Virus record (IMG/VR): IMGVR_UViG_3300005611_000001
Source of the DNA: a virus
Lineage: Duplodnaviria > Caudoviricetes
Length of the DNA stretch: 64,000 nucleotides
Strand: one strand, 5' to 3'
Positions 24,850 through 56,625 of the stretch are shown here, piece by piece. The position numbers were made by a program, and so were the translations under genes. The notes under the pieces were generated by a model. It made no database searches. It was not told the origin of the DNA and saw only the letters and a program-made list of their open reading frames with translations. The first letter of the stretch is position 1; every line of letters begins with the position of its first letter.

Positions 24850-25515
24850 ATGAAACTCATTGCTGAATACATTGACAACGGACTAGAAGTTATTACCGAA
24901 GCGAAGAGCGACGGTACTAAGTCCTATATGATTGAAGGCATCTTTGCACAAGCGGAACAAAAGAATCGTAACGGTCGTGTATACCCTCGCACAATCATGG
25001 AGCGAGCAGTAGAAAAATACATGACCGATCAAGTTGCTAAAAAGCGTTCGGTGGGTGAGTTGAATCACCCCGACGGACCTACTATCAACTTGGACAAAGT
25101 TTCTCACCTCATCACTGGGCTTCAATGGGAAGGCAATGATGTGGTTGGAAAGGCACAAATATTGGATACTCCAATGGGTAAGATTGTAAAAGGTCTACTT
25201 GATGGCGGTGTTCAACTAGGTGTGTCAACTCGTGGTATGGGTAGTCTTGAGCAAAGAAATGGCACTATGTATGTGCGTGACGACTTTATTTTAAATACTG
25301 TCGATATCGTACAAGATCCTTCTGCACCTGCAGCCTTTGTTAATGGAATTATGGAAGGTGTCGAATGGGTATGGAATAACGGTGTCATTCAAGCACAAGA
25401 AATTGAGAAGATGGAGACTGAAATTAAAGCCGCTCCGAAAAAGCATCTCTACGAGACGCAAGTTCGCGAGTACAAGAATTTCCTCTCACAGCTCAAATCA
25501 AACTTTAAGGAGTAA
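24850..25515 (+). CDS. gp21: Prohead protease
   Basis: KNRNGRVY, GELNHP, GVSTRGMGS, DIVQDPSAP.AFV. Confidence 0.97.
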   Translation: MKLIAEYIDNGLEVITEAKSDGTKSYMIEGIFAQAEQKNRNGRVYPRTIMERAVEKYMTDQVAKKRSVGELNHPDGPTINLDKVSHLITGLQWEGNDVVGKAQILDTPMGKIVKGLLDGGVQLGVSTRGMGSLEQRNGTMYVRDDFILNTVDIVQDPSAPAAFVNGIMEGVEWVWNNGVIQAQEIEKMETEIKAAPKKHLYETQVREYKNFLSQLKSNFKE

Positions 25516-25520
25516 AACAT

Positions 25521-26549
25521 ATGTCTGATCAAGACCAACATGTTGAGCTTCCGGTCGATGAGTCTATCGAGGAAGCTAGTGCTGCGAAGATGCCTGTAGG
25601 TACTGAGGCAGATTCAATTGCGTCTGTAGACAAGACGGATACTACTAAGAAGGCTCCCGCTCGTAAAGGGGATACCGGAAAGCAAGATCCGATGCCGAAG
25701 ACCAAAGCAGGAATGCTCAACGCTATGTATGGCAAGATGGCTGGTATGAAAAAAGACCAACTGACTGCTATGTACAGCAAGATGCAAGAAGAAGTCGATC
25801 TGGATGACGAAGAAGCCATTGAGCTTCCTGAGTTCTCTTACACCGACGAGCTTGATGCACTTGTTGAAAGCGAAGCAACATTGTCTGATGAGTTCAAAGC
25901 GAAGACTGCTGTGATCTTTGAAACGGCTATTCGTTCTAAGCTGTCTGAAGAAATTCAGCGCTTGGAAGATGAATATCAAACTCGCCTCGACGAAGAACTG
26001 GACGCTACGCGCACAGACCTTGTTGAGAAAGTTGATAGCTACCTCAACTACGTTGTTGAAAATTGGATGGAGCAAAACAAACTCGCTGTTGAGACTGGTC
26101 TGCGCACTGAAATCGCTGAAGATTTCATGGGCAAACTGAAGGACCTGTTCCTTGAGTCTTACATCGAAGTGCCTGAGTCCAAGATTGACCTAGTTGATGA
26201 ACTTGCTGAGCAAGTTGAAGAGCTTGAAGAAAAACTCAATGCTCAAACTGCTGACGTTCTTGCAATGAACGAAACGCTTGAGGCTTACATGCGCGAAGCT
26301 GTAATCCGTGAAGCTGCTCGTGACCTTGCAGAAACTCAAGTAGAAAAACTCAAGTCTCTTGTTGAGTCTCTTGACTTTGAAGACGAAGAAACTTTCGCAC
26401 AAAAGGTGAAAACTGTGAAAGAGTCTTACTTCAAGAAAGAAGTGAAGAGTGAAGAAGAGATTGTTGAAGATTGGGAAGCAGATCAATCGCGCGAAGTTTC
26501 TAGCGTGATGGATATGTACCTTAACGCAATTAAGAAATCCAATAAGTAA
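25521..26549 (+). CDS. gp22: Prohead core scaffolding protein
   Basis: LSDEFKAKTAVIFE, KVDSYLNYVVENW, GLRTEIAEDF; acidic coiled coil. Confidence 0.93.
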   Translation: MSDQDQHVELPVDESIEEASAAKMPVGTEADSIASVDKTDTTKKAPARKGDTGKQDPMPKTKAGMLNAMYGKMAGMKKDQLTAMYSKMQEEVDLDDEEAIELPEFSYTDELDALVESEATLSDEFKAKTAVIFETAIRSKLSEEIQRLEDEYQTRLDEELDATRTDLVEKVDSYLNYVVENWMEQNKLAVETGLRTEIAEDFMGKLKDLFLESYIEVPESKIDLVDELAEQVEELEEKLNAQTADVLAMNETLEAYMREAVIREAARDLAETQVEKLKSLVESLDFEDEETFAQKVKTVKESYFKKEVKSEEEIVEDWEADQSREVSSVMDMYLNAIKKSNK

Positions 26550-52573: not shown

Positions 52574-52581
52574 TATAAATA
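52574..52581 (+). promoter_or_regulatory. T4-type late promoter overlapped by RBS-occluding hairpin
   Basis: TATAAATA; inverted repeat 52578-52608. Confidence 0.75.
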
Positions 52582-52610
52582 GTCTTAAGTTCTTCACTTA
52601 AGGCTGTTCT

Positions 52611-53201
52611 ATGTCTATTGCAGATTTTTTTGAAAAAAATAGATATGCTTATATCAAAAATGCCCTGCCTTTACATAAGTGTGATCAGTATGTAAAGGCA
52701 TTGTGGGCTTCAAAATCAATGAAAAATTGTGCTCAATGTCCAGGCTCTACATCATCATATACCGAGTGGCCGTTGGCTAGAGTACACTACAAAATGGTTC
52801 CTGAACTATCAAGCATTTTAGGCATTGATCTTGCACCAACATACGTTTTTTCTAGAATATATAAAAAGGGCTCTGATTTGGAAAAACACAAAGACCGCCC
52901 TTCTTGTGAGATATCTACAACTTTGACTTTGGGTGTTTCAAATCCAAATTCAAATTGGCCAATATACTTTCAAACAAAAGACGGCAACAAGGCATTTAAT
53001 ATTTCTGTCGGTGATATGGTCGCGTACAGAGGAGAAGAATTGTGGCATTGGCGCGATCCATTACAAGATGATTGGCAAGTACAAGTCTTTTTTCATTTCA
53101 TTGACAAGAACGGTCCTCATTATCCAAAATTTTTAAATGATCGAGGAAGAAACGATAGAATGTATGAATTGGTTGCTGAAAGTTTAAAATTAAATACTTG
53201 A
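52611..53201 (+). CDS. 2OG-Fe(II) oxygenase
   Basis: RIYKKGSDLEKHKDRPSCEISTTL, GDMVAYRG...HWR, QVFFH. Confidence 0.85.
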   Translation: MSIADFFEKNRYAYIKNALPLHKCDQYVKALWASKSMKNCAQCPGSTSSYTEWPLARVHYKMVPELSSILGIDLAPTYVFSRIYKKGSDLEKHKDRPSCEISTTLTLGVSNPNSNWPIYFQTKDGNKAFNISVGDMVAYRGEELWHWRDPLQDDWQVQVFFHFIDKNGPHYPKFLNDRGRNDRMYELVAESLKLNT

Positions 53202-53217
53202 AAAGAGATGGATTGAT

Positions 53218-53475
53218 ATGGCGATTAGTGAACATGAAAGTGCAAATTATCATGCAATTACTGATGCGATAGTATCTCGTCGTTCTAAAATTAAATGGTT
53301 ATTAAAAATTCATAATGATAATGCATCGAAGTATTTTGATAGTCTTCTTTCTTATGAGTTTCGAAATGAGTTACAAGAGTACGCTGAAGAAATAAAAGAA
53401 TTAGAGATCCTTCTTTGGAAATTTGAATTGCCCTTACCTCCGGAAAAAATTAATCCAGTGGGATACGAAGCTTAA
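53218..53475 (+). CDS. Hypothetical protein
   Basis: RBS and plausible ORF. Confidence 0.55.
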   Translation: MAISEHESANYHAITDAIVSRRSKIKWLLKIHNDNASKYFDSLLSYEFRNELQEYAEEIKELEILLWKFELPLPPEKINPVGYEA

Positions 53476-53499
53476 TCTTTTTTAACATGGAAATAAATT

Positions 53500-53571
53500 A
53501 TGAAAGCAGGTAAAGTTTGGGGTACTACTGATGACATTGTTCGGAGAACCGTTGGACAAAAAATCGATTGA
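53500..53571 (+). pseudogene. Truncated cupin-like gene remnant (MKAGKVWGTT...)
   Basis: Good RBS; N-terminus recalled from marine phage cupin proteins; frame closes after 23 aa. Confidence 0.45.
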
Positions 53572-53800
53572 CTCTGATCTAAAAGCCCTGTACTCTTCTG
53601 TGCAGGGCAAAGTTGATCGTCATCTAGTCGAAGCGCTGGCTGATATTCGAAATGGTAAAGACCCCGAGGTTGTGCTGCGTAAGTTCAGCCGACTTGCAAC
53701 AAACACTCTTATTCATGGCCCCACAAAAGTAATTCGCGATCAAGACAATCCTGAACTGATCAAAAAAATCATAGGTATTGAAAATGAAGATAAATCATAG
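53531..53800 (+). CDS. Stand-alone glutamyl-tRNA reductase dimerisation-like domain
   Basis: EALADIRNGKDPEVVLRKFSRLATNTLIHGPTKVIR matches HemA C-terminal L..G.DP..VL...A..LTNKLLH.PT..L. Confidence 0.65.
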   Translation: MTLFGEPLDKKSIDSDLKALYSSVQGKVDRHLVEALADIRNGKDPEVVLRKFSRLATNTLIHGPTKVIRDQDNPELIKKIIGIENEDKS

Positions 53801-54077
53801 TAATGCAATTTTTGACCTTGAGCAAGAATTTATTAACTGCTGGGAAATCATCGATGATGTGAAAATGATTACAGATTACTTCACAGATGATCCGAAGTGG
53901 AAAGAGATGGATCCTGTTCTTGCAGATGCTCTGATGAATAAATACTATGGGCTTGCAGAAGTCTATGAACTTAGAATGCAGAAAGCATGGAACACCTTTG
54001 AAACTGTCTGCCGTGAATATCACGCAGCCAGACGCGCATCAAAACAAACTTACGGAGTCGAGCATGAAAGCGATTAA
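53784..54077 (+). CDS. Conserved hypothetical protein
   Basis: FDLEQEFINCWEIIDD...YELRMQKAW. Confidence 0.7.
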   Translation: MKINHSNAIFDLEQEFINCWEIIDDVKMITDYFTDDPKWKEMDPVLADALMNKYYGLAEVYELRMQKAWNTFETVCREYHAARRASKQTYGVEHESD

Positions 54078-54276
54078 GAACTATTTCAAGACCCTCTTTC
54101 TTGAAGAGTATCAGGTTGTCATTTGGAATGACGGCGCTGATGATCGCACCATTTATGCTCTGAAAAAGATTGAGAAGATCGATTCGAACAATCTGGTCGG
54201 CGTTCTCACCACCGGTGAAAGATTCGAAATGTGTGTCCAAACACCTTTCAATTTCACCGTTAAAAAGATTCATTGA
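54064..54276 (+). CDS. Hypothetical protein
   Basis: GGAG RBS before ATG 54064. Confidence 0.6.
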   Translation: MKAIKNYFKTLFLEEYQVVIWNDGADDRTIYALKKIEKIDSNNLVGVLTTGERFEMCVQTPFNFTVKKIH

Positions 54277-54418
54277 TATCGATATATCAAAATATTCTAA
54301 ACTTTTTTATGAATATTTCATGAAAGTCTAAGACAACCTTTATACATAATTGCGTGTAGAAAAGTAACACTACACACCGCCATCCCCCACAAACAAATAT
54401 TTTTGGAGAATTTTTCAA

Positions 54419-54619
54419 ATGAAAAATCTAGTTGCGTTCGTCTGTCTTTTTGCCTCTGCTGGTGCTCTTGCTGTCACTGATTCTTATGTTGCTCGCCTGA
54501 ATGACCAAGGTGAGTACTGCGCTAAAATTAATGTTGGTATCGTTACCCCCTACTTCAAGACCAAGTGCTATACGCTTGAGCAGTGGGAAGAGAACGGTTT
54601 CACGGTCGAAGTTAAATAA
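54419..54619 (+). CDS. Small secreted protein with two Cys
   Basis: GGAGA RBS; signal peptide MKNLVAFVCLFASAGALA; YCAK...TKC.TLEQWE. Confidence 0.75.
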   Translation: MKNLVAFVCLFASAGALAVTDSYVARLNDQGEYCAKINVGIVTPYFKTKCYTLEQWEENGFTVEVK

Positions 54620-54640
54620 GAGGTTGCGATCAGATAATCA

Positions 54641-54874
54641 ATGGCAAACACATTTAAGTTTTATCTTCCTTTAATAGTAATTTTTGCTCTTTGCGTTTTC
54701 GGTCTGTTCGCGCCTGTAATCTACAGCGATGTGTACGGTGAGATTCTGAACAACTCACCAACGCTTTACATGCCGATGGTGAATGTTGATTATCTGACCA
54801 ATGAAATGTGCAATGATCCCACCAAACTGCACTATGTTCTTTGCGGTCTTGATGACTTGAATACTGTAGCATAA
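54641..54874 (+). CDS. Small membrane-anchored protein
   Basis: N-terminal hydrophobic helix. Confidence 0.6.
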   Translation: MANTFKFYLPLIVIFALCVFGLFAPVIYSDVYGEILNNSPTLYMPMVNVDYLTNEMCNDPTKLHYVLCGLDDLNTVA

Positions 54875-54884
54875 TCGGTTATAC

Positions 54885-55008
54885 TATATACTATAGAACG
54901 CACTGCTTTGATCTAGAAGTGGCAAAGGCTACAATCAGACTAAGATCCCTCCATTAGGAGGGTACGCGGGGGAGGATCCCGCAGGCAGTGCGTCTCTTTA
55001 GAGTATAG
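54885..55008 (+). ncRNA. Unassigned multi-stem structured element 1
   Basis: Closing stem acgcactgc(54898-906)/gcagtgcgt(54985-993); inner hairpins gtggc-aaag-gctac, ccctcc-atta-ggaggg, gcggg-ggaggat-cccgc. Confidence 0.55.
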
Positions 55009-55102
55009 ATTGGGCAGAGCGAACATAACTTGGAACATAAACTCGTTGCTTCCAAGTGACTGACCGATTCCTAAGCGAGGTGCGGAATCCTAGCAATCTA
55101 TA
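55004..55102 (+). ncRNA. Unassigned structured element 2 (junction with possible kissing loops)
   Basis: Closing stem tatagattg/caatctata; hairpins acttggaa/ttccaagt and gattcc/ggaatc; loops ctcgtt and agcgag complementary. Confidence 0.55.
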
Positions 55103-55104
55103 AA

Positions 55105-55197
55105 GTCCTAAGGATTTAAAATCCTGGGCAGATTAATCACCGTGCGTGAAACTCGTTTCGGTTTGATTAGCAGCGGGTGGAAGCCCCGCACCTTTTT
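55105..55197 (+). ncRNA. Unassigned structured element 3
   Basis: gtcc-aggat/atcct-gggc hairpin, taatca/tgatta arm, gcggg-tggaagc-cccgc T-arm-like hairpin followed by T-run. Confidence 0.4.
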
Positions 55198-55272
55198 AGA
55201 ATAGGCACTGAGTATGCTTAAGCATCAGTTAGTCCTGTAGAGTCGCAATCTTGGGCAACAGTGTCTGTTCTA
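55197..55272 (+). ncRNA. Unassigned structured element 4 (76 nt)
   Basis: 14-bp closing stem tagaataggcactg/cagtgtctgttcta with G-U pairs; inner atgc-ttaa-gcat and gtcc/gggc arms. Confidence 0.5.
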
Positions 55273-55274
55273 AT

Positions 55275-55580
55275 TTATTCGATGAAGCGGAGAGAAAGGT
55301 GATCTGGACAGAGGTTCAACTCCTCTCACCTCCACCAAAAGCACATACGCTGGATATGCAGATAGCATATTGAGACATAAGAAACATCAGGTATGTGCTT
55401 TTGATGGGGGTGTACTGGTTTCGACAGGTGCTAAGTATCAAAGTGGAGAATCGTCAAGCGCTGACGCTAAACAGAGCAACCTAAAATAAACGCAAACGAT
55501 GACGTTTATACCGAGGACTTTGCGCTAGCAGCGTAAACCTCGCGGGGTTCGCCGGAGCCTTGTTACCCAAGTCCGGCACT
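55275..55580 (+). ncRNA. ssrA: Circularly permuted (two-piece) tmRNA
   Basis: T-arm agagg-TTCAACT-cctct and CACCUCC-A-CCA end at 55337; hairpin intervening segment; 5' end GGGGGUG at 55406 giving G3-U70; pk1; tag ANDDVYTEDFALAA* at 55492-55536. Confidence 0.93.
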
Positions 55581-55599
55581 AATTCGGAGAAATCTACAA

Positions 55600-55866
55600 A
55601 TGAAACCATTCAGTCAATACATTACAGAGTATAATGATGAAACTCTTGTGAAGAAGATAAAGCACCCTAGTGGGACCGTTTTAATGATCTCTCGCTACAA
55701 GAACGGACCCGATGAAGGTAAGTACATTGTTCGTGTATCCAAGAGTAATTATGAACGTGGAAAGCAGAATCGCACGATGCGAGCTATACACGATAAGCCT
55801 CTCGATGCAGAAGCAGCCGTCGCCCTTTTTAATAAAAGAAAGAAATCGATCTGGAAGAAAAAATGA
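55600..55866 (+). CDS. Basic protein with capsid-targeting-like N-terminus (putative internal head protein)
   Basis: GGAGA RBS; MKPFSQYITE resembles T4 IP leader MKTYQEFIAE; Lys/Arg-rich. Confidence 0.6.
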   Translation: MKPFSQYITEYNDETLVKKIKHPSGTVLMISRYKNGPDEGKYIVRVSKSNYERGKQNRTMRAIHDKPLDAEAAVALFNKRKKSIWKKK

Positions 55867-55880
55867 AATCATTTCGACAG

Positions 55881-55929
55881 TTCTTCGCCTGGCGGCGTAA
55901 ACTTCGCGGGGTCGGCACTAATTCGGAGA
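55881..55929 (+). repeat. Degenerate, internally deleted second copy of tmRNA tag end and 3' tail
   Basis: gcgtaaac[c/t]tcgcggggt and cggcactaattcggaga repeat 55531-55548 and 55574-55590. Confidence 0.9.
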
Positions 55930-55935
55930 GAGTGA

Positions 55936-56625
55936 GTGCGAACATTACTGATTAGTGATGTACATATTGGGTTCAAGTTTTCTAGAGCCAAAGATGCAGT
56001 GACTGTTCTTGAAAAAGAAAAGTTTGACAGACTGATATTAGTTGGTGACATTTTTGATATTCAAAATATGATGCATCGTGCATACTGGGATGAACATCAC
56101 ACTGCCTTCCTTAAGAAAATCCTCAAACTGGCTAAGAAAAAAGAAGTCATTTATGTAATTGGCAATCACGATTATCCTCTCTATCATCTACAAGAATACA
56201 CCAAGAAAATAGCAGGCATTCATCTATGCCGAGAGTACACTTACACTTCGGGTGACAAGACAATTCACTGTGTTCACGGTGACCAGTTTGATTCTGTCTC
56301 GCGCAAGATTCAAGTTCTTGGTGATTTCTTCTATAATATGCTTCTGCATCTAAATCGTTTGATTGGCAGAATTCAGACACTGTTCGGATTCAAGTATCGC
56401 TCTTTTAGCAAGTGGTGCAAAGACAAGGTTAAGAACACGATCAGCAAAGCATTCTCAATTGAAGAGAAACTGCATGCAATAGATAATGTTGATGTTGTGA
56501 TTTACGGGCATACTCATATGCCTTATATTAGCGACACTCTTATCAACACGGGCACCTTTGTTGAGATTGCAACTTATGTCATTGAAGAGAACGGTGTGTT
56601 CGAACTAAAGGATTTGGATAAATGA
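55936..56625 (+). CDS. Metallophosphoesterase, PlcP/LpxH-like
   Basis: ISDVHIG, LVGDIFD, YW...H, IGNHD, HGDQFD, YGHTH. Confidence 0.85.
   Translation: MRTLLISDVHIGFKFSRAKDAVTVLEKEKFDRLILVGDIFDIQNMMHRAYWDEHHTAFLKKILKLAKKKEVIYVIGNHDYPLYHLQEYTKKIAGIHLCREYTYTSGDKTIHCVHGDQFDSVSRKIQVLGDFFYNMLLHLNRLIGRIQTLFGFKYRSFSKWCKDKVKNTISKAFSIEEKLHAIDNVDVVIYGHTHMPYISDTLINTGTFVEIATYVIEENGVFELKDLDK

What the first reader, a model, noticed from the sequence alone, without database searches (positions are those of the whole stretch)
55516..55955. tmRNA 3' tail acts as a cassette-exchange site for MKxFxQ genes
Seen: the end of the tag plus the 3' tail and RBS recurs at 55881-55929. It has near-synonymous differences (ttc/ttt, ctg/cta, gcg/gca), a 1-nt deletion and a 25-nt internal deletion, and is fused to a relic start MKSFRQF. 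The two copies flank one gene starting MKPFSQY. Established: T4 internal protein IPI, a GmrSD inhibitor, is hypervariable and lies by the tRNA cluster. Inference: recombination between related phages at the tmRNA tail swaps capsid-packaged effector genes, the second copy coming from another phage's tmRNA.
Basis: partly seen in the sequence, partly recalled or inferred. Interest (0 to 1): 0.7.

Follow-up and report, generated by a model that had tools for sequence, protein, structure and literature searches.

The report
Recombination scar behind a phage tmRNA
In an uncultured aquatic T4-like phage, one small gene for a probable capsid-packaged protein was spliced in behind the phage's own tmRNA gene, leaving a broken second copy of the tmRNA's end; this is a clear footprint of gene shuffling between phages, not a dedicated exchange site.

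Summary
The end of a phage-encoded two-piece tmRNA (tag end, tail and Shine-Dalgarno, 55525-55590) recurs at 55889-55929. The second copy lacks the conserved hairpin. The two copies bracket an 88-aa gene plus the first 9 codons of a second gene.

Relatives explain the structure:
- At least four tmRNA variants, on many contigs, have the tmRNA tail joined directly to the phosphoesterase gene (the empty site).
- The 88-aa gene normally sits elsewhere, in late-promoter-headed arrays after uvsX/gene 41. Every gene in those arrays starts with a decapeptide that matches the T4 capsid targeting sequence at its four critical residues.
- The window's tmRNA is 98-100% identical to one lineage (L006). Its phosphoesterase gene is about 97% identical to another (L054). 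The cassette is 89% identical to a third (L012), whose core genes are only about 70% identical.

The locus is therefore a three-parent recombinant with short-homology junctions (GGAGA, TTCGC). Copy 2 is most likely the resident phage's old tail, not the imported one.

A general cassette-exchange role for the tail is only weakly supported. About four different right-hand neighbours exist, no other tmRNA locus carries a relic, and most relatives keep tmRNA-phosphoesterase. Packaging and anti-restriction activity are untested.

The parts
55275..55337 (+). tmRNA acceptor piece (T-arm, 3' acceptor strand, CCA)
   Evidence: Rfam RF04321 alignment; ARAGORN. It is 98% identical to L006 but only 84% to L054.
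55338..55406 (+). Intervening segment of the permuted tmRNA gene, closed by a 22-nt inverted repeat
   Evidence: the repeat finder I1. It is 69/69 identical to L006 and 48-61% to L054, L055 and L009.
55407..55590 (+). tmRNA coding piece: 5' acceptor strand, tag ORF 55492-55536 (ANDDVYTEDFALAA*), post-tag hairpin 55551-55577, then the 17-mer ending in the Shine-Dalgarno GGAGA (tail copy 1 = 55525-55590)
   Evidence: In the hairpin, 5 of 6 pairs show compensatory changes across 8 phage tmRNAs. The minimum-energy fold pairs the bases just after the stop codon with UUCGGAG.
55591..55599 (+). 9-nt spacer (AATCTACAA) that came in with the cassette
   Evidence: L047 has TAATCTA directly before the same gene's ATG. 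A Logan contig of the cassette matches from 55586 but not further upstream (record 7).
55600..55866 (+). 88-aa cargo gene: CTS-like leader MKPFSQYITE followed by a basic 78-aa body
   Evidence: It is 89.4% nt identical to L012 over 55599-55882. Only 5 protein clusters are known. pI 10.1. The AF2 model has a disordered leader, 4 strands and a C-terminal helix, pLDDT 78. No Pfam, PHROG or fold match.
55863..55889 (+). Relic leader of the next array gene (MKSFRQFFA), cut off at the string TTCGC (55884-55888) that it shares with the tag
55889..55929 (+). Tail copy 2: relic tag end (L-A-A-stop), post-stop stretch, hairpin deleted, then an intact 17-mer with GGAGA that now serves the phosphoesterase gene
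   Evidence: It no longer folds. The sequence GAGTGA-GTG after it is shared with L054.
55863..55955 (+). 30-aa chimeric ORF (leader relic read on through the tail relic), which overlaps the phosphoesterase start
   Evidence: It is a by-product of the fusion, and no homologue is expected.
55936..56625 (+). Metallophosphoesterase gene, the usual right-hand neighbour of this tmRNA
   Evidence: Pfam Metallophos. It is 96.5-100% identical to L054 outside the patch and about 79-85% to L006, L055 and L063.
55962..56091 (+). 130-nt gene-conversion patch inside the phosphoesterase gene
   Evidence: All 22 differences between the window and L046 fall here. In this patch the window is 94-95% like L006/L055 but 80-83% like L054/L046.

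Best explanation
The locus is a scar of illegitimate recombination between co-infecting T4-like phages. The resident phage carried the common arrangement, tmRNA then tail then phosphoesterase, as L054 still does. An incoming stretch carried an L006-type tmRNA with its tail. Behind the Shine-Dalgarno of that tail sat one gene from a leader-gene array: the 88-aa gene plus 9 codons of its neighbour. This stretch was joined to the resident genome at a 5-nt string, TTCGC, that the neighbour's leader (F-A-E) shares with the tmRNA tag (F-A-L-A-A). The join fell about 70 nt upstream of the resident tail's end, so the resident tail survived as a second copy. That copy has no function as RNA. It lost its hairpin by slippage between TCG repeats and picked up three transitions, but kept the 17-mer whose GGAGA still drives the phosphoesterase gene. 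The cargo is probably a prohead-targeted internal protein, cleaved after Glu10 by the gp21-type protease and injected with the DNA. Shown: the repeat, the empty sites, the three-way identity discordance, the origin of the cassette, and the fit of the leader to the T4 motif. Inferred: a single event, the direction (copy 2 = resident), the microhomology mechanism, packaging, and any anti-defence role.
For: Empty sites: L006, L054, L055-L062 and L063, and Logan contigs that join 55573>55912 and 55590>55937. Discordant identities: against L006 the tmRNA is 98-100% identical but the phosphoesterase 79-82%; against L054 the tmRNA is 57-93% but the phosphoesterase 96.5-100%. Cassette origin: it matches L012 at 89.4% exactly over 55599-55882, while L012's polymerase and helicase genes are 68-74% identical. 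All other homologues sit after uvsX, gene 41 and a 277-aa gene. Junctions: TTCGC is shared by leader (L050 TTTTTCGCCGAG) and tag, and the 9-nt spacer resembles L047. Copy 2 is contiguous with the L054-type GAGTGA-GTG junction, and its deletion fits TCG...TCG in an L054-type stem. Its 3-5 changes in 41 nt match the 8.6% third-position divergence between the window and L054. Real in nature: L046 and runs X2 and X3. Leader: residues 4, 7, 8 and 10 (F, Y/F, I/L, E) match the residues critical in T4's MKTYQEFIAE (PMC9026906). gp21-type protease and gp22 scaffold genes are in the window. The native arrays are headed by TATAAATA.
Against: No donor with the 88-aa gene already behind an L006-type tmRNA has been found, so a two-step history (insertion with duplication, then tmRNA replacement) is equally possible. 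Microhomologies of 5 nt are short enough to be coincidental. Copy 2 is no closer to L054's tail (5 differences) than to copy 1 (3 differences), so calling it resident rests on contiguity and on the deletion end-points. At the new site no late-promoter motif lies between 52581 and 63873, so the protein may not be made when proheads assemble. The fold search found nothing resembling T4 IPI*.
Confidence: 0.72

Rival explanations
1. One reading: the tmRNA tail (hairpin, 17-mer and SD) is a recurrent recombination anchor, comparable to a PeSL or an attC site, at which related phages routinely swap capsid-packaged effector genes by homologous exchange.
For: Closely related tails have at least four different right-hand neighbours: phosphoesterase, the cassette, a 70-aa gene in L009/L020, and an unrelated sequence in run X1. 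Homology breaks fall right after the hairpin or the 17-mer in several tmRNA lineages, for example L003 against L011. Short-patch recombination is intense just downstream. A conserved tail followed by an SD is a plausible portable homology.
Against: Among the PE-linked contigs retrieved (found through a PE protein query, so adjacency is partly by design), all keep the tmRNA directly upstream of the phosphoesterase gene. None of 12 other tmRNA loci carries a tail relic. The cassette's own junctions are a 5-nt microhomology and an SD, not the tail repeat. Homology breaks at the end of a gene are expected in any mosaic phage genome. The natural home and shuffling site of these genes is the leader array after gene 41, where the leaders themselves look exchanged (P0004).
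Confidence: 0.17
2. Site-specific integration: a small mobile element inserted at the 3' end of the tmRNA gene, as genomic islands do in bacteria, duplicating the target as attL and attR.
For: tmRNA genes are classic integration sites, and integration leaves a direct repeat of the gene's 3' end (PMC11915505 abstract; PMC9004378).
Against: The 0.3-kb insert encodes only the 88-aa protein and no integrase. In a permuted tmRNA gene the 3' end is the coding piece, not the tRNA-like end that integrases use. The right boundary cuts through another gene's leader, which a site-specific event would not do. The flanks come from different phage lineages.
Confidence: 0.03
3. Local tandem duplication of the tail within one genome followed by decay, or a chimeric metagenome assembly, with no inter-phage exchange.
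For: Both copies share an identical 17-mer. The three substitutions in copy 2 could be simple decay.
Against: A duplication does not explain foreign DNA between the copies at 89% identity to a distant phage. Nor does it explain the 98% against 82% identity step. Two assemblies and separate runs show the same junctions, and repeats of 17-24 nt cannot mislead a k=141 assembly.
Confidence: 0.03

Closest known systems
Polymorphic internal-protein (IP) genes of T-even phages, which share only the capsid targeting sequence (T4 ipI, ipII, ipIII; Repoila et al. 1994 as cited in PMC3012670 and PMC9026906)
   Same: They are small basic proteins with unrelated bodies behind a shared N-terminal decapeptide. 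Here that is M-K/L-x-F-x-x-Y/F-I/L-x-E, against T4's MKTYQEFIAE and MKTFKEF.... The genes are arrayed in tandem, vary between related phages, and occur in a phage that encodes a gp21-type protease and a gp22 scaffold. In T4, ipI lies about 1 kb from the tRNA cluster. Here the gene lies next to the tmRNA and a block of small RNAs.
   Different: There is no sequence or fold similarity to IPI*, IPII or IPIII. The leader in this clade also heads large enzyme-like proteins: DUF6267, a P-loop kinase, a cytidylyltransferase-like protein. Packaging, cleavage and any anti-restriction activity are untested.
PeSL-mediated modular shuffling in hyperplastic regions of T4-type phages (Arbiol et al. 2010, PMC2839356; PMC4122927)
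   Same: A single small ORFan-type gene is gained in a variable region, bracketed by direct repeats of a short regulatory element that contains a stem-loop. Closely related phages differ by its presence or absence.
   Different: A PeSL is a sigma-70 early promoter plus a terminator stem-loop. Here the repeat is the 3' tail of a structural RNA plus an SD, with no promoter and no U-tract. The second copy has lost its stem-loop, and the cassette's junctions are microhomologies rather than repeat-to-repeat exchange. No mini-circles have been shown.
Phage-encoded two-piece tmRNA (for example Methylophilales phage Melnitz; PMC9004378)
   Same: It is a T4-like aquatic myovirus of the Kyanoviridae type with a permuted ssrA that is followed at once by a protein gene in the same apparent operon. 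Melnitz carries the same kind of leader-gene array after its DnaB-like helicase.
   Different: The Melnitz tmRNA is of the alphaproteobacterial type. This one scores as the betaproteobacterial type (RF01850), and its 5' coding-piece start is identical to that of Rhodocyclaceae tmRNAs. No tail duplication has been described for Melnitz.

Membership tests
Two-piece (permuted) tmRNA, betaproteobacterial type | The acceptor piece with T-arm and CCA lies upstream of the coding piece, which has the 5' acceptor strand, a tag ORF ending in ALAA-stop and a post-tag hairpin. | tested here: met
   ARAGORN permuted tmRNA. RF04321 scores 113.9 bits against a gathering score of 47. RF01850 scores 81.9 bits, just under its gathering score of 84, and aligns the post-tag hairpin. 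The hairpin covaries.
T4-type capsid-targeted internal proteins (CTS proteins) | An N-terminal propeptide of about 10 residues with aromatic residues at positions 4 and 7 (targeting) and I/L at 8 plus Glu at 10 (gp21 processing). | tested here: met
   MKPFSQYITE and all relatives' leaders have F4, Y/F7, I/L8 and E10. T4 ipII and ipIII read MKTYQEFIAE. The critical positions are taken from PMC9026906.
T4-type capsid-targeted internal proteins (CTS proteins) | The phage has the gp21 prohead protease and the gp22 scaffolding core into which CTS proteins are loaded. | tested here: met
   Peptidase_S77 at 24850-25515 and T4_CASP at 25521-26549. Portal and major head protein are also present.
T4-type capsid-targeted internal proteins (CTS proteins) | Late expression, so that the protein is present when proheads assemble. 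| tested here: inconclusive
   The native arrays in L012, L047, L015, Melnitz and C48C1 have TATAAATA 10-50 nt before the first gene of the unit. At the window's site the nearest such motif is 3 kb upstream, at 52574.
T4-type capsid-targeted internal proteins (CTS proteins) | Physical presence of the cleaved protein in the capsid and its injection into the host. | not testable with these tools
   This needs virion proteomics.
T4 IPI* (GmrSD inhibitor) | Sequence or fold similarity to IPI*. | tested here: not met
   No tblastn hit in 50,697 phage records. IPI* is not among the Foldseek hits in PDB or BFVD, where the best E-values are 0.16 and 0.008, the latter to uncharacterised phage proteins.
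PeSL regulatory cassette | A sigma-70-like early promoter joined to a terminator stem-loop, repeated in hyperplastic regions. | tested here: not met
   The scan finds no promoter-like site in 55540-55600 and no terminator-like site in the tail. The repeat occurs only twice in 64 kb.
Integrase-mediated island at a tmRNA gene | An integrase gene and identical att cores flanking the insert. | tested here: not met
   The insert holds one 88-aa ORF with no family match. The flanking copies differ, and the right end cuts through a gene's leader.

The most novel reading that the evidence does not exclude
The tmRNA tail together with the SD is a portable expression and recombination platform. The SD of whatever gene follows is locked in a helix with the bases just 3' of the tag's stop codon. 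Cargo translation would then be coupled to tmRNA processing, or even to ribosomes finishing trans-translation. Phages of this clade would use the site to try out injected, CTS-tagged counter-defence proteins taken from each other's leader arrays.
Probability: 0.1. Interest if true: 0.7.

Novelty: new variant of a known kind. Interest (0 to 1): 0.4.

Why it matters
This is an unusually legible example of how T4-like phages move single accessory genes. Both junctions, the empty site, the donor context and three parental lineages can all be read from public data. The case shows that a structural RNA gene's 3' end can be duplicated and survive as a relic that still supplies a ribosome-binding site.

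It also points to something broader. Uncultured and cultured aquatic T4-like phages (Melnitz, C48C1, cyanophage relatives) carry late-promoter-headed arrays of genes, enzyme-like ones included. All of these genes begin with a decapeptide that fits the T4 capsid targeting sequence. If those proteins are really packaged and injected, they form a large, unexplored pool of candidate early-acting or counter-defence proteins.

Tried and rejected
- blastn of the locus against 50,697 GenBank phage records found nothing, and tblastn of the 88-aa protein found nothing.
- PHROGs and Pfam give no family for the 88-aa protein.
- Foldseek of a fair AF2 model (pLDDT 78) against PDB and BFVD gave no hit at E<=0.001, so no function can be read from the fold.
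- The metagenome scan for the tail motif returned mostly chance hits in bacterial coding DNA. Only L020 (= L009) and L026 were relevant.
- No intact tmRNA with copy 2's exact variants was found. L026 shares only the 21 nt GCGGCGTAAACTTCGCGGGGT.
- A search for tail relics around 12 other phage tmRNA genes found none.
- The idea that copy 2's differences are synonymous, and therefore come from a selected foreign tmRNA, was dropped. The leader FFAE variant removed two of the five differences, and L054 showed that the rest fit neutral divergence.
- The genome scan for the 5' coding-piece motif mostly hit Rhodocyclaceae, but also Firmicutes. It is too conserved a string to name a host.
- The run search found no run holding more than 31% of the sampled words, so habitat and expression are not claimed.
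- No whole genome is held for this window.
- Repoila et al. 1994 (PMC395341) could not be read.

Full report
**What is there.**
- The window is part of a T4-like myovirus genome. It encodes a tail sheath, a gp20-type portal, a gp23-type head protein, UvsW, gp46, gp43 and gp41 homologues, and a gp21-type prohead protease with a gp22-type scaffold.
- The T4 late-promoter motif TATAAATA occurs 11 times, all on the + strand, against 2.6 expected.
- At 55245-55595 lies a circularly permuted (two-piece) tmRNA gene with the tag ANDDVYTEDFALAA* (ARAGORN; RF04321, 113.9 bits).
- The betaproteobacterial model RF01850 aligns it as far as 55595, including a conserved hairpin after the tag.
- That hairpin is a working part of the RNA. 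Across eight phage tmRNA tails, 5 of its 6 pairs show compensatory changes while the loop stays constant.
- Phage-borne two-piece tmRNAs are already known (PMC9004378), so the tmRNA itself is not new.

- The last codons of the tag and the stretch after the stop (55525-55548) recur at 55889-55912, with 21 of 24 bases identical.
- The 17-mer CGGCACTAATTCGGAGA (55574-55590) recurs exactly at 55913-55929.
- The 25 nt between these two pieces, most of the hairpin, are missing in the second copy.
- Each half occurs only twice in the window and in none of 100 shuffles.
- Between the copies lie an 88-aa ORF (55600-55866) and a 30-aa ORF starting MKSFRQF.
- An independent ENA contig (L046) matches 52600-56201 without a gap. 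Logan contigs from two further runs cover the left and right junctions. The arrangement therefore exists in nature.

**Empty sites.**
- In L006 the same tmRNA runs through the tail and GGAGA straight into the metallophosphoesterase gene. L006's 17-mer aligns to both copies in the window.
- The same adjacency is found with three further tmRNA variants: L054, L055-L062 and L063, from many samples.
- It is also found in two Logan contigs that skip 55573>55912 and 55590>55937.
- tmRNA-phosphoesterase is thus the common state of this clade, and the window lineage carries an insertion.
- More distant relatives have the phosphoesterase gene behind a UvsY-like gene with no tmRNA.

**Where the insert came from.**
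- The 88-aa protein has only five known clusters.
- Everywhere else the gene sits in a tandem array downstream of uvsX, the gene-41 helicase and a 277-aa gene.
- The window matches L012 at 89.4% over exactly 55599-55882: the gene plus the first 20 nt of the next one. L012's polymerase and helicase genes match the window at only 68-74%. The cassette has therefore moved between lineages.
- In L012 the next gene begins MKSFSQFISE with the same ATGA overlap. The window's MKSFRQF is thus a true stub of that neighbour.
- In L050 and L051 the neighbour's leader reads MLRFSEFFAE (...TTTTTCGCCGAG). The stub in the window is therefore probably nine codons, MKSFRQFFA, and it meets the tag (F-A-L-A-A) within a shared TTCGC.
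- On the left, the 9 nt before the ATG resemble the native upstream of L047. A Logan contig of the cassette matches the window only from 55586, the G of GGAGA. This hints that the left join used the Shine-Dalgarno itself.

**Three parents.**

| Compared with | tmRNA | Phosphoesterase gene |
|---|---|---|
| L006 | 98-100% identical, including 69/69 in the excised intervening segment | 79-82% |
| L054 | 84% (acceptor piece), 57% (intervening segment) | 96.5-100% outside one patch; third-position divergence 8.6% |

- The break between the two histories lies in the cassette and relic region.
- Copy 2 is continuous with the L054-type junction GAGTGA-GTG.
- Its missing hairpin is neatly derived from an L054-type stem by loss of 27 nt between TCG repeats.
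- Its three to five changes in 41 nt are what neutral drift at the flank's rate predicts.
- I therefore read copy 2 as the resident phage's own former tail, and the intact tmRNA upstream as the import.
- One event suffices: an incoming piece of tmRNA, tail, cassette and leader stub, joined at TTCGC to the resident tag. A two-step history cannot be excluded, and the predicted donor has not been found.

**Ongoing recombination.**
- The window and L046 are identical over 3.3 kb except for 22 differences, all inside 55962-56091 and nearly all at third codon positions.
- In that patch the window is 94-95% like L006/L055 but only 80-83% like L054/L046.
- Short-patch gene conversion between co-circulating lineages is therefore active right beside the scar.

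**Is the tail an exchange site?** Only weakly.

In favour:
- Near-identical tails are followed by the phosphoesterase, the cassette, a 70-aa gene (L009/L020, which break after CGGCACTA) and an unrelated sequence in run X1.
- In other tmRNA lineages, homology also ends just after the hairpin (L003 against L011).

Against:
- Most relatives keep the same neighbour.
- No other tmRNA locus of the 12 examined has a relic.
- The cassette's junctions are microhomologies.
- Breaks at gene ends are the rule in mosaic phages.
- The tail is not a PeSL: it has no promoter and no terminator. Nothing suggests an integrase.

**What the cargo is.**
- All array genes begin M-K/L-x-F-x-x-Y/F-I/L-x-E.
- T4 ipII and ipIII begin MKTYQEFIAE, and ipI begins MKTFKEF....
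- In T4, residues 4 and 7 of this capsid targeting sequence direct packaging, and residues 8 and 10 direct cleavage (PMC9026906; PMC8442874). These are exactly the conserved positions here.
- The predicted mature protein has 78 residues and pI 10.2. It has a disordered leader and a compact four-strand-plus-helix body.
- The native arrays are headed by late-promoter motifs.
- The window itself holds only this one leader gene.
- This is good sequence-level support for a prohead-targeted, injected protein.
- There is no similarity to IPI* or to any known fold, and no evidence for any anti-restriction activity.
- At its new site the gene has no late-promoter motif within 3 kb.

**Verdict.** It records a three-lineage recombination that parked a CTS-type gene behind a phage tmRNA and left the old tail as a relic. 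It is a new variant of well-known T4-family gene shuffling, of moderate interest. The broader lead is the leader-gene arrays.

Noticed in passing
L012:4270-7012; L047:2163-3731; L015:737-5965; L066 (Melnitz-3):1917-6580; L065 (phage C48C1):2998-6300: Tandem arrays of genes after the gene-41 helicase all start with the CTS-like decapeptide. They include large enzyme-like proteins: 408-aa DUF6267, a 232-aa P-loop AAA_33/zeta-like kinase, and a 650-aa cytidylyltransferase-like protein in Melnitz. The arrays are headed by TATAAATA. If the leader really targets the prohead, these phages package enzymes.
   Followed up: partly
L050:793-1059 against L047:3001-3267: The same 88-aa body carries either an MKSF-type or an MLRF-type leader. 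The MLRF type is the one used by the neighbouring DUF6267 gene. This suggests leaders are exchanged between array genes by recombination.
   Followed up: no
window 55962-56091: A 130-nt gene-conversion patch lies in the phosphoesterase gene. It holds the only 22 differences between the window and contig L046, and here the window resembles the L006/L055 lineage instead of its own.
   Followed up: yes
window 55539-55546 with 55583-55589: The minimum-energy fold pairs the bases just after the tag's stop codon (CUCGCGG) with UUCGGAG, the Shine-Dalgarno of the downstream gene, enclosing the conserved hairpin. Variants in L054 and in copy 2 keep the pairing only through G-U wobbles, so covariation does not yet support it.
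   Followed up: partly
L006:537-626: A 90-nt insertion with 12-nt terminal inverted repeats (AAACACACTAG.../...CTAGTGTGTTT) sits between the upstream RNA module and the tmRNA in L006. It is absent from the window.
   Followed up: no
window 54875-55275: A gene-free stretch lies upstream of the tmRNA. It contains a conserved stem-closed element (89% identical in L009) and a terminator-like hairpin at 55173-55189. The middle 275 nt are replaced by an unrelated 90 nt in L009.
   Followed up: no
window 53947-54276; L009:5021-5236 (- strand); L006:1722-1963: Homologues of one small gene (..FKTLFLEEYQVV.W..) lie upstream of the tmRNA in the window, directly behind the tmRNA in L009, and behind the phosphoesterase in L006. 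Gene order around the tmRNA is fluid.
   Followed up: no
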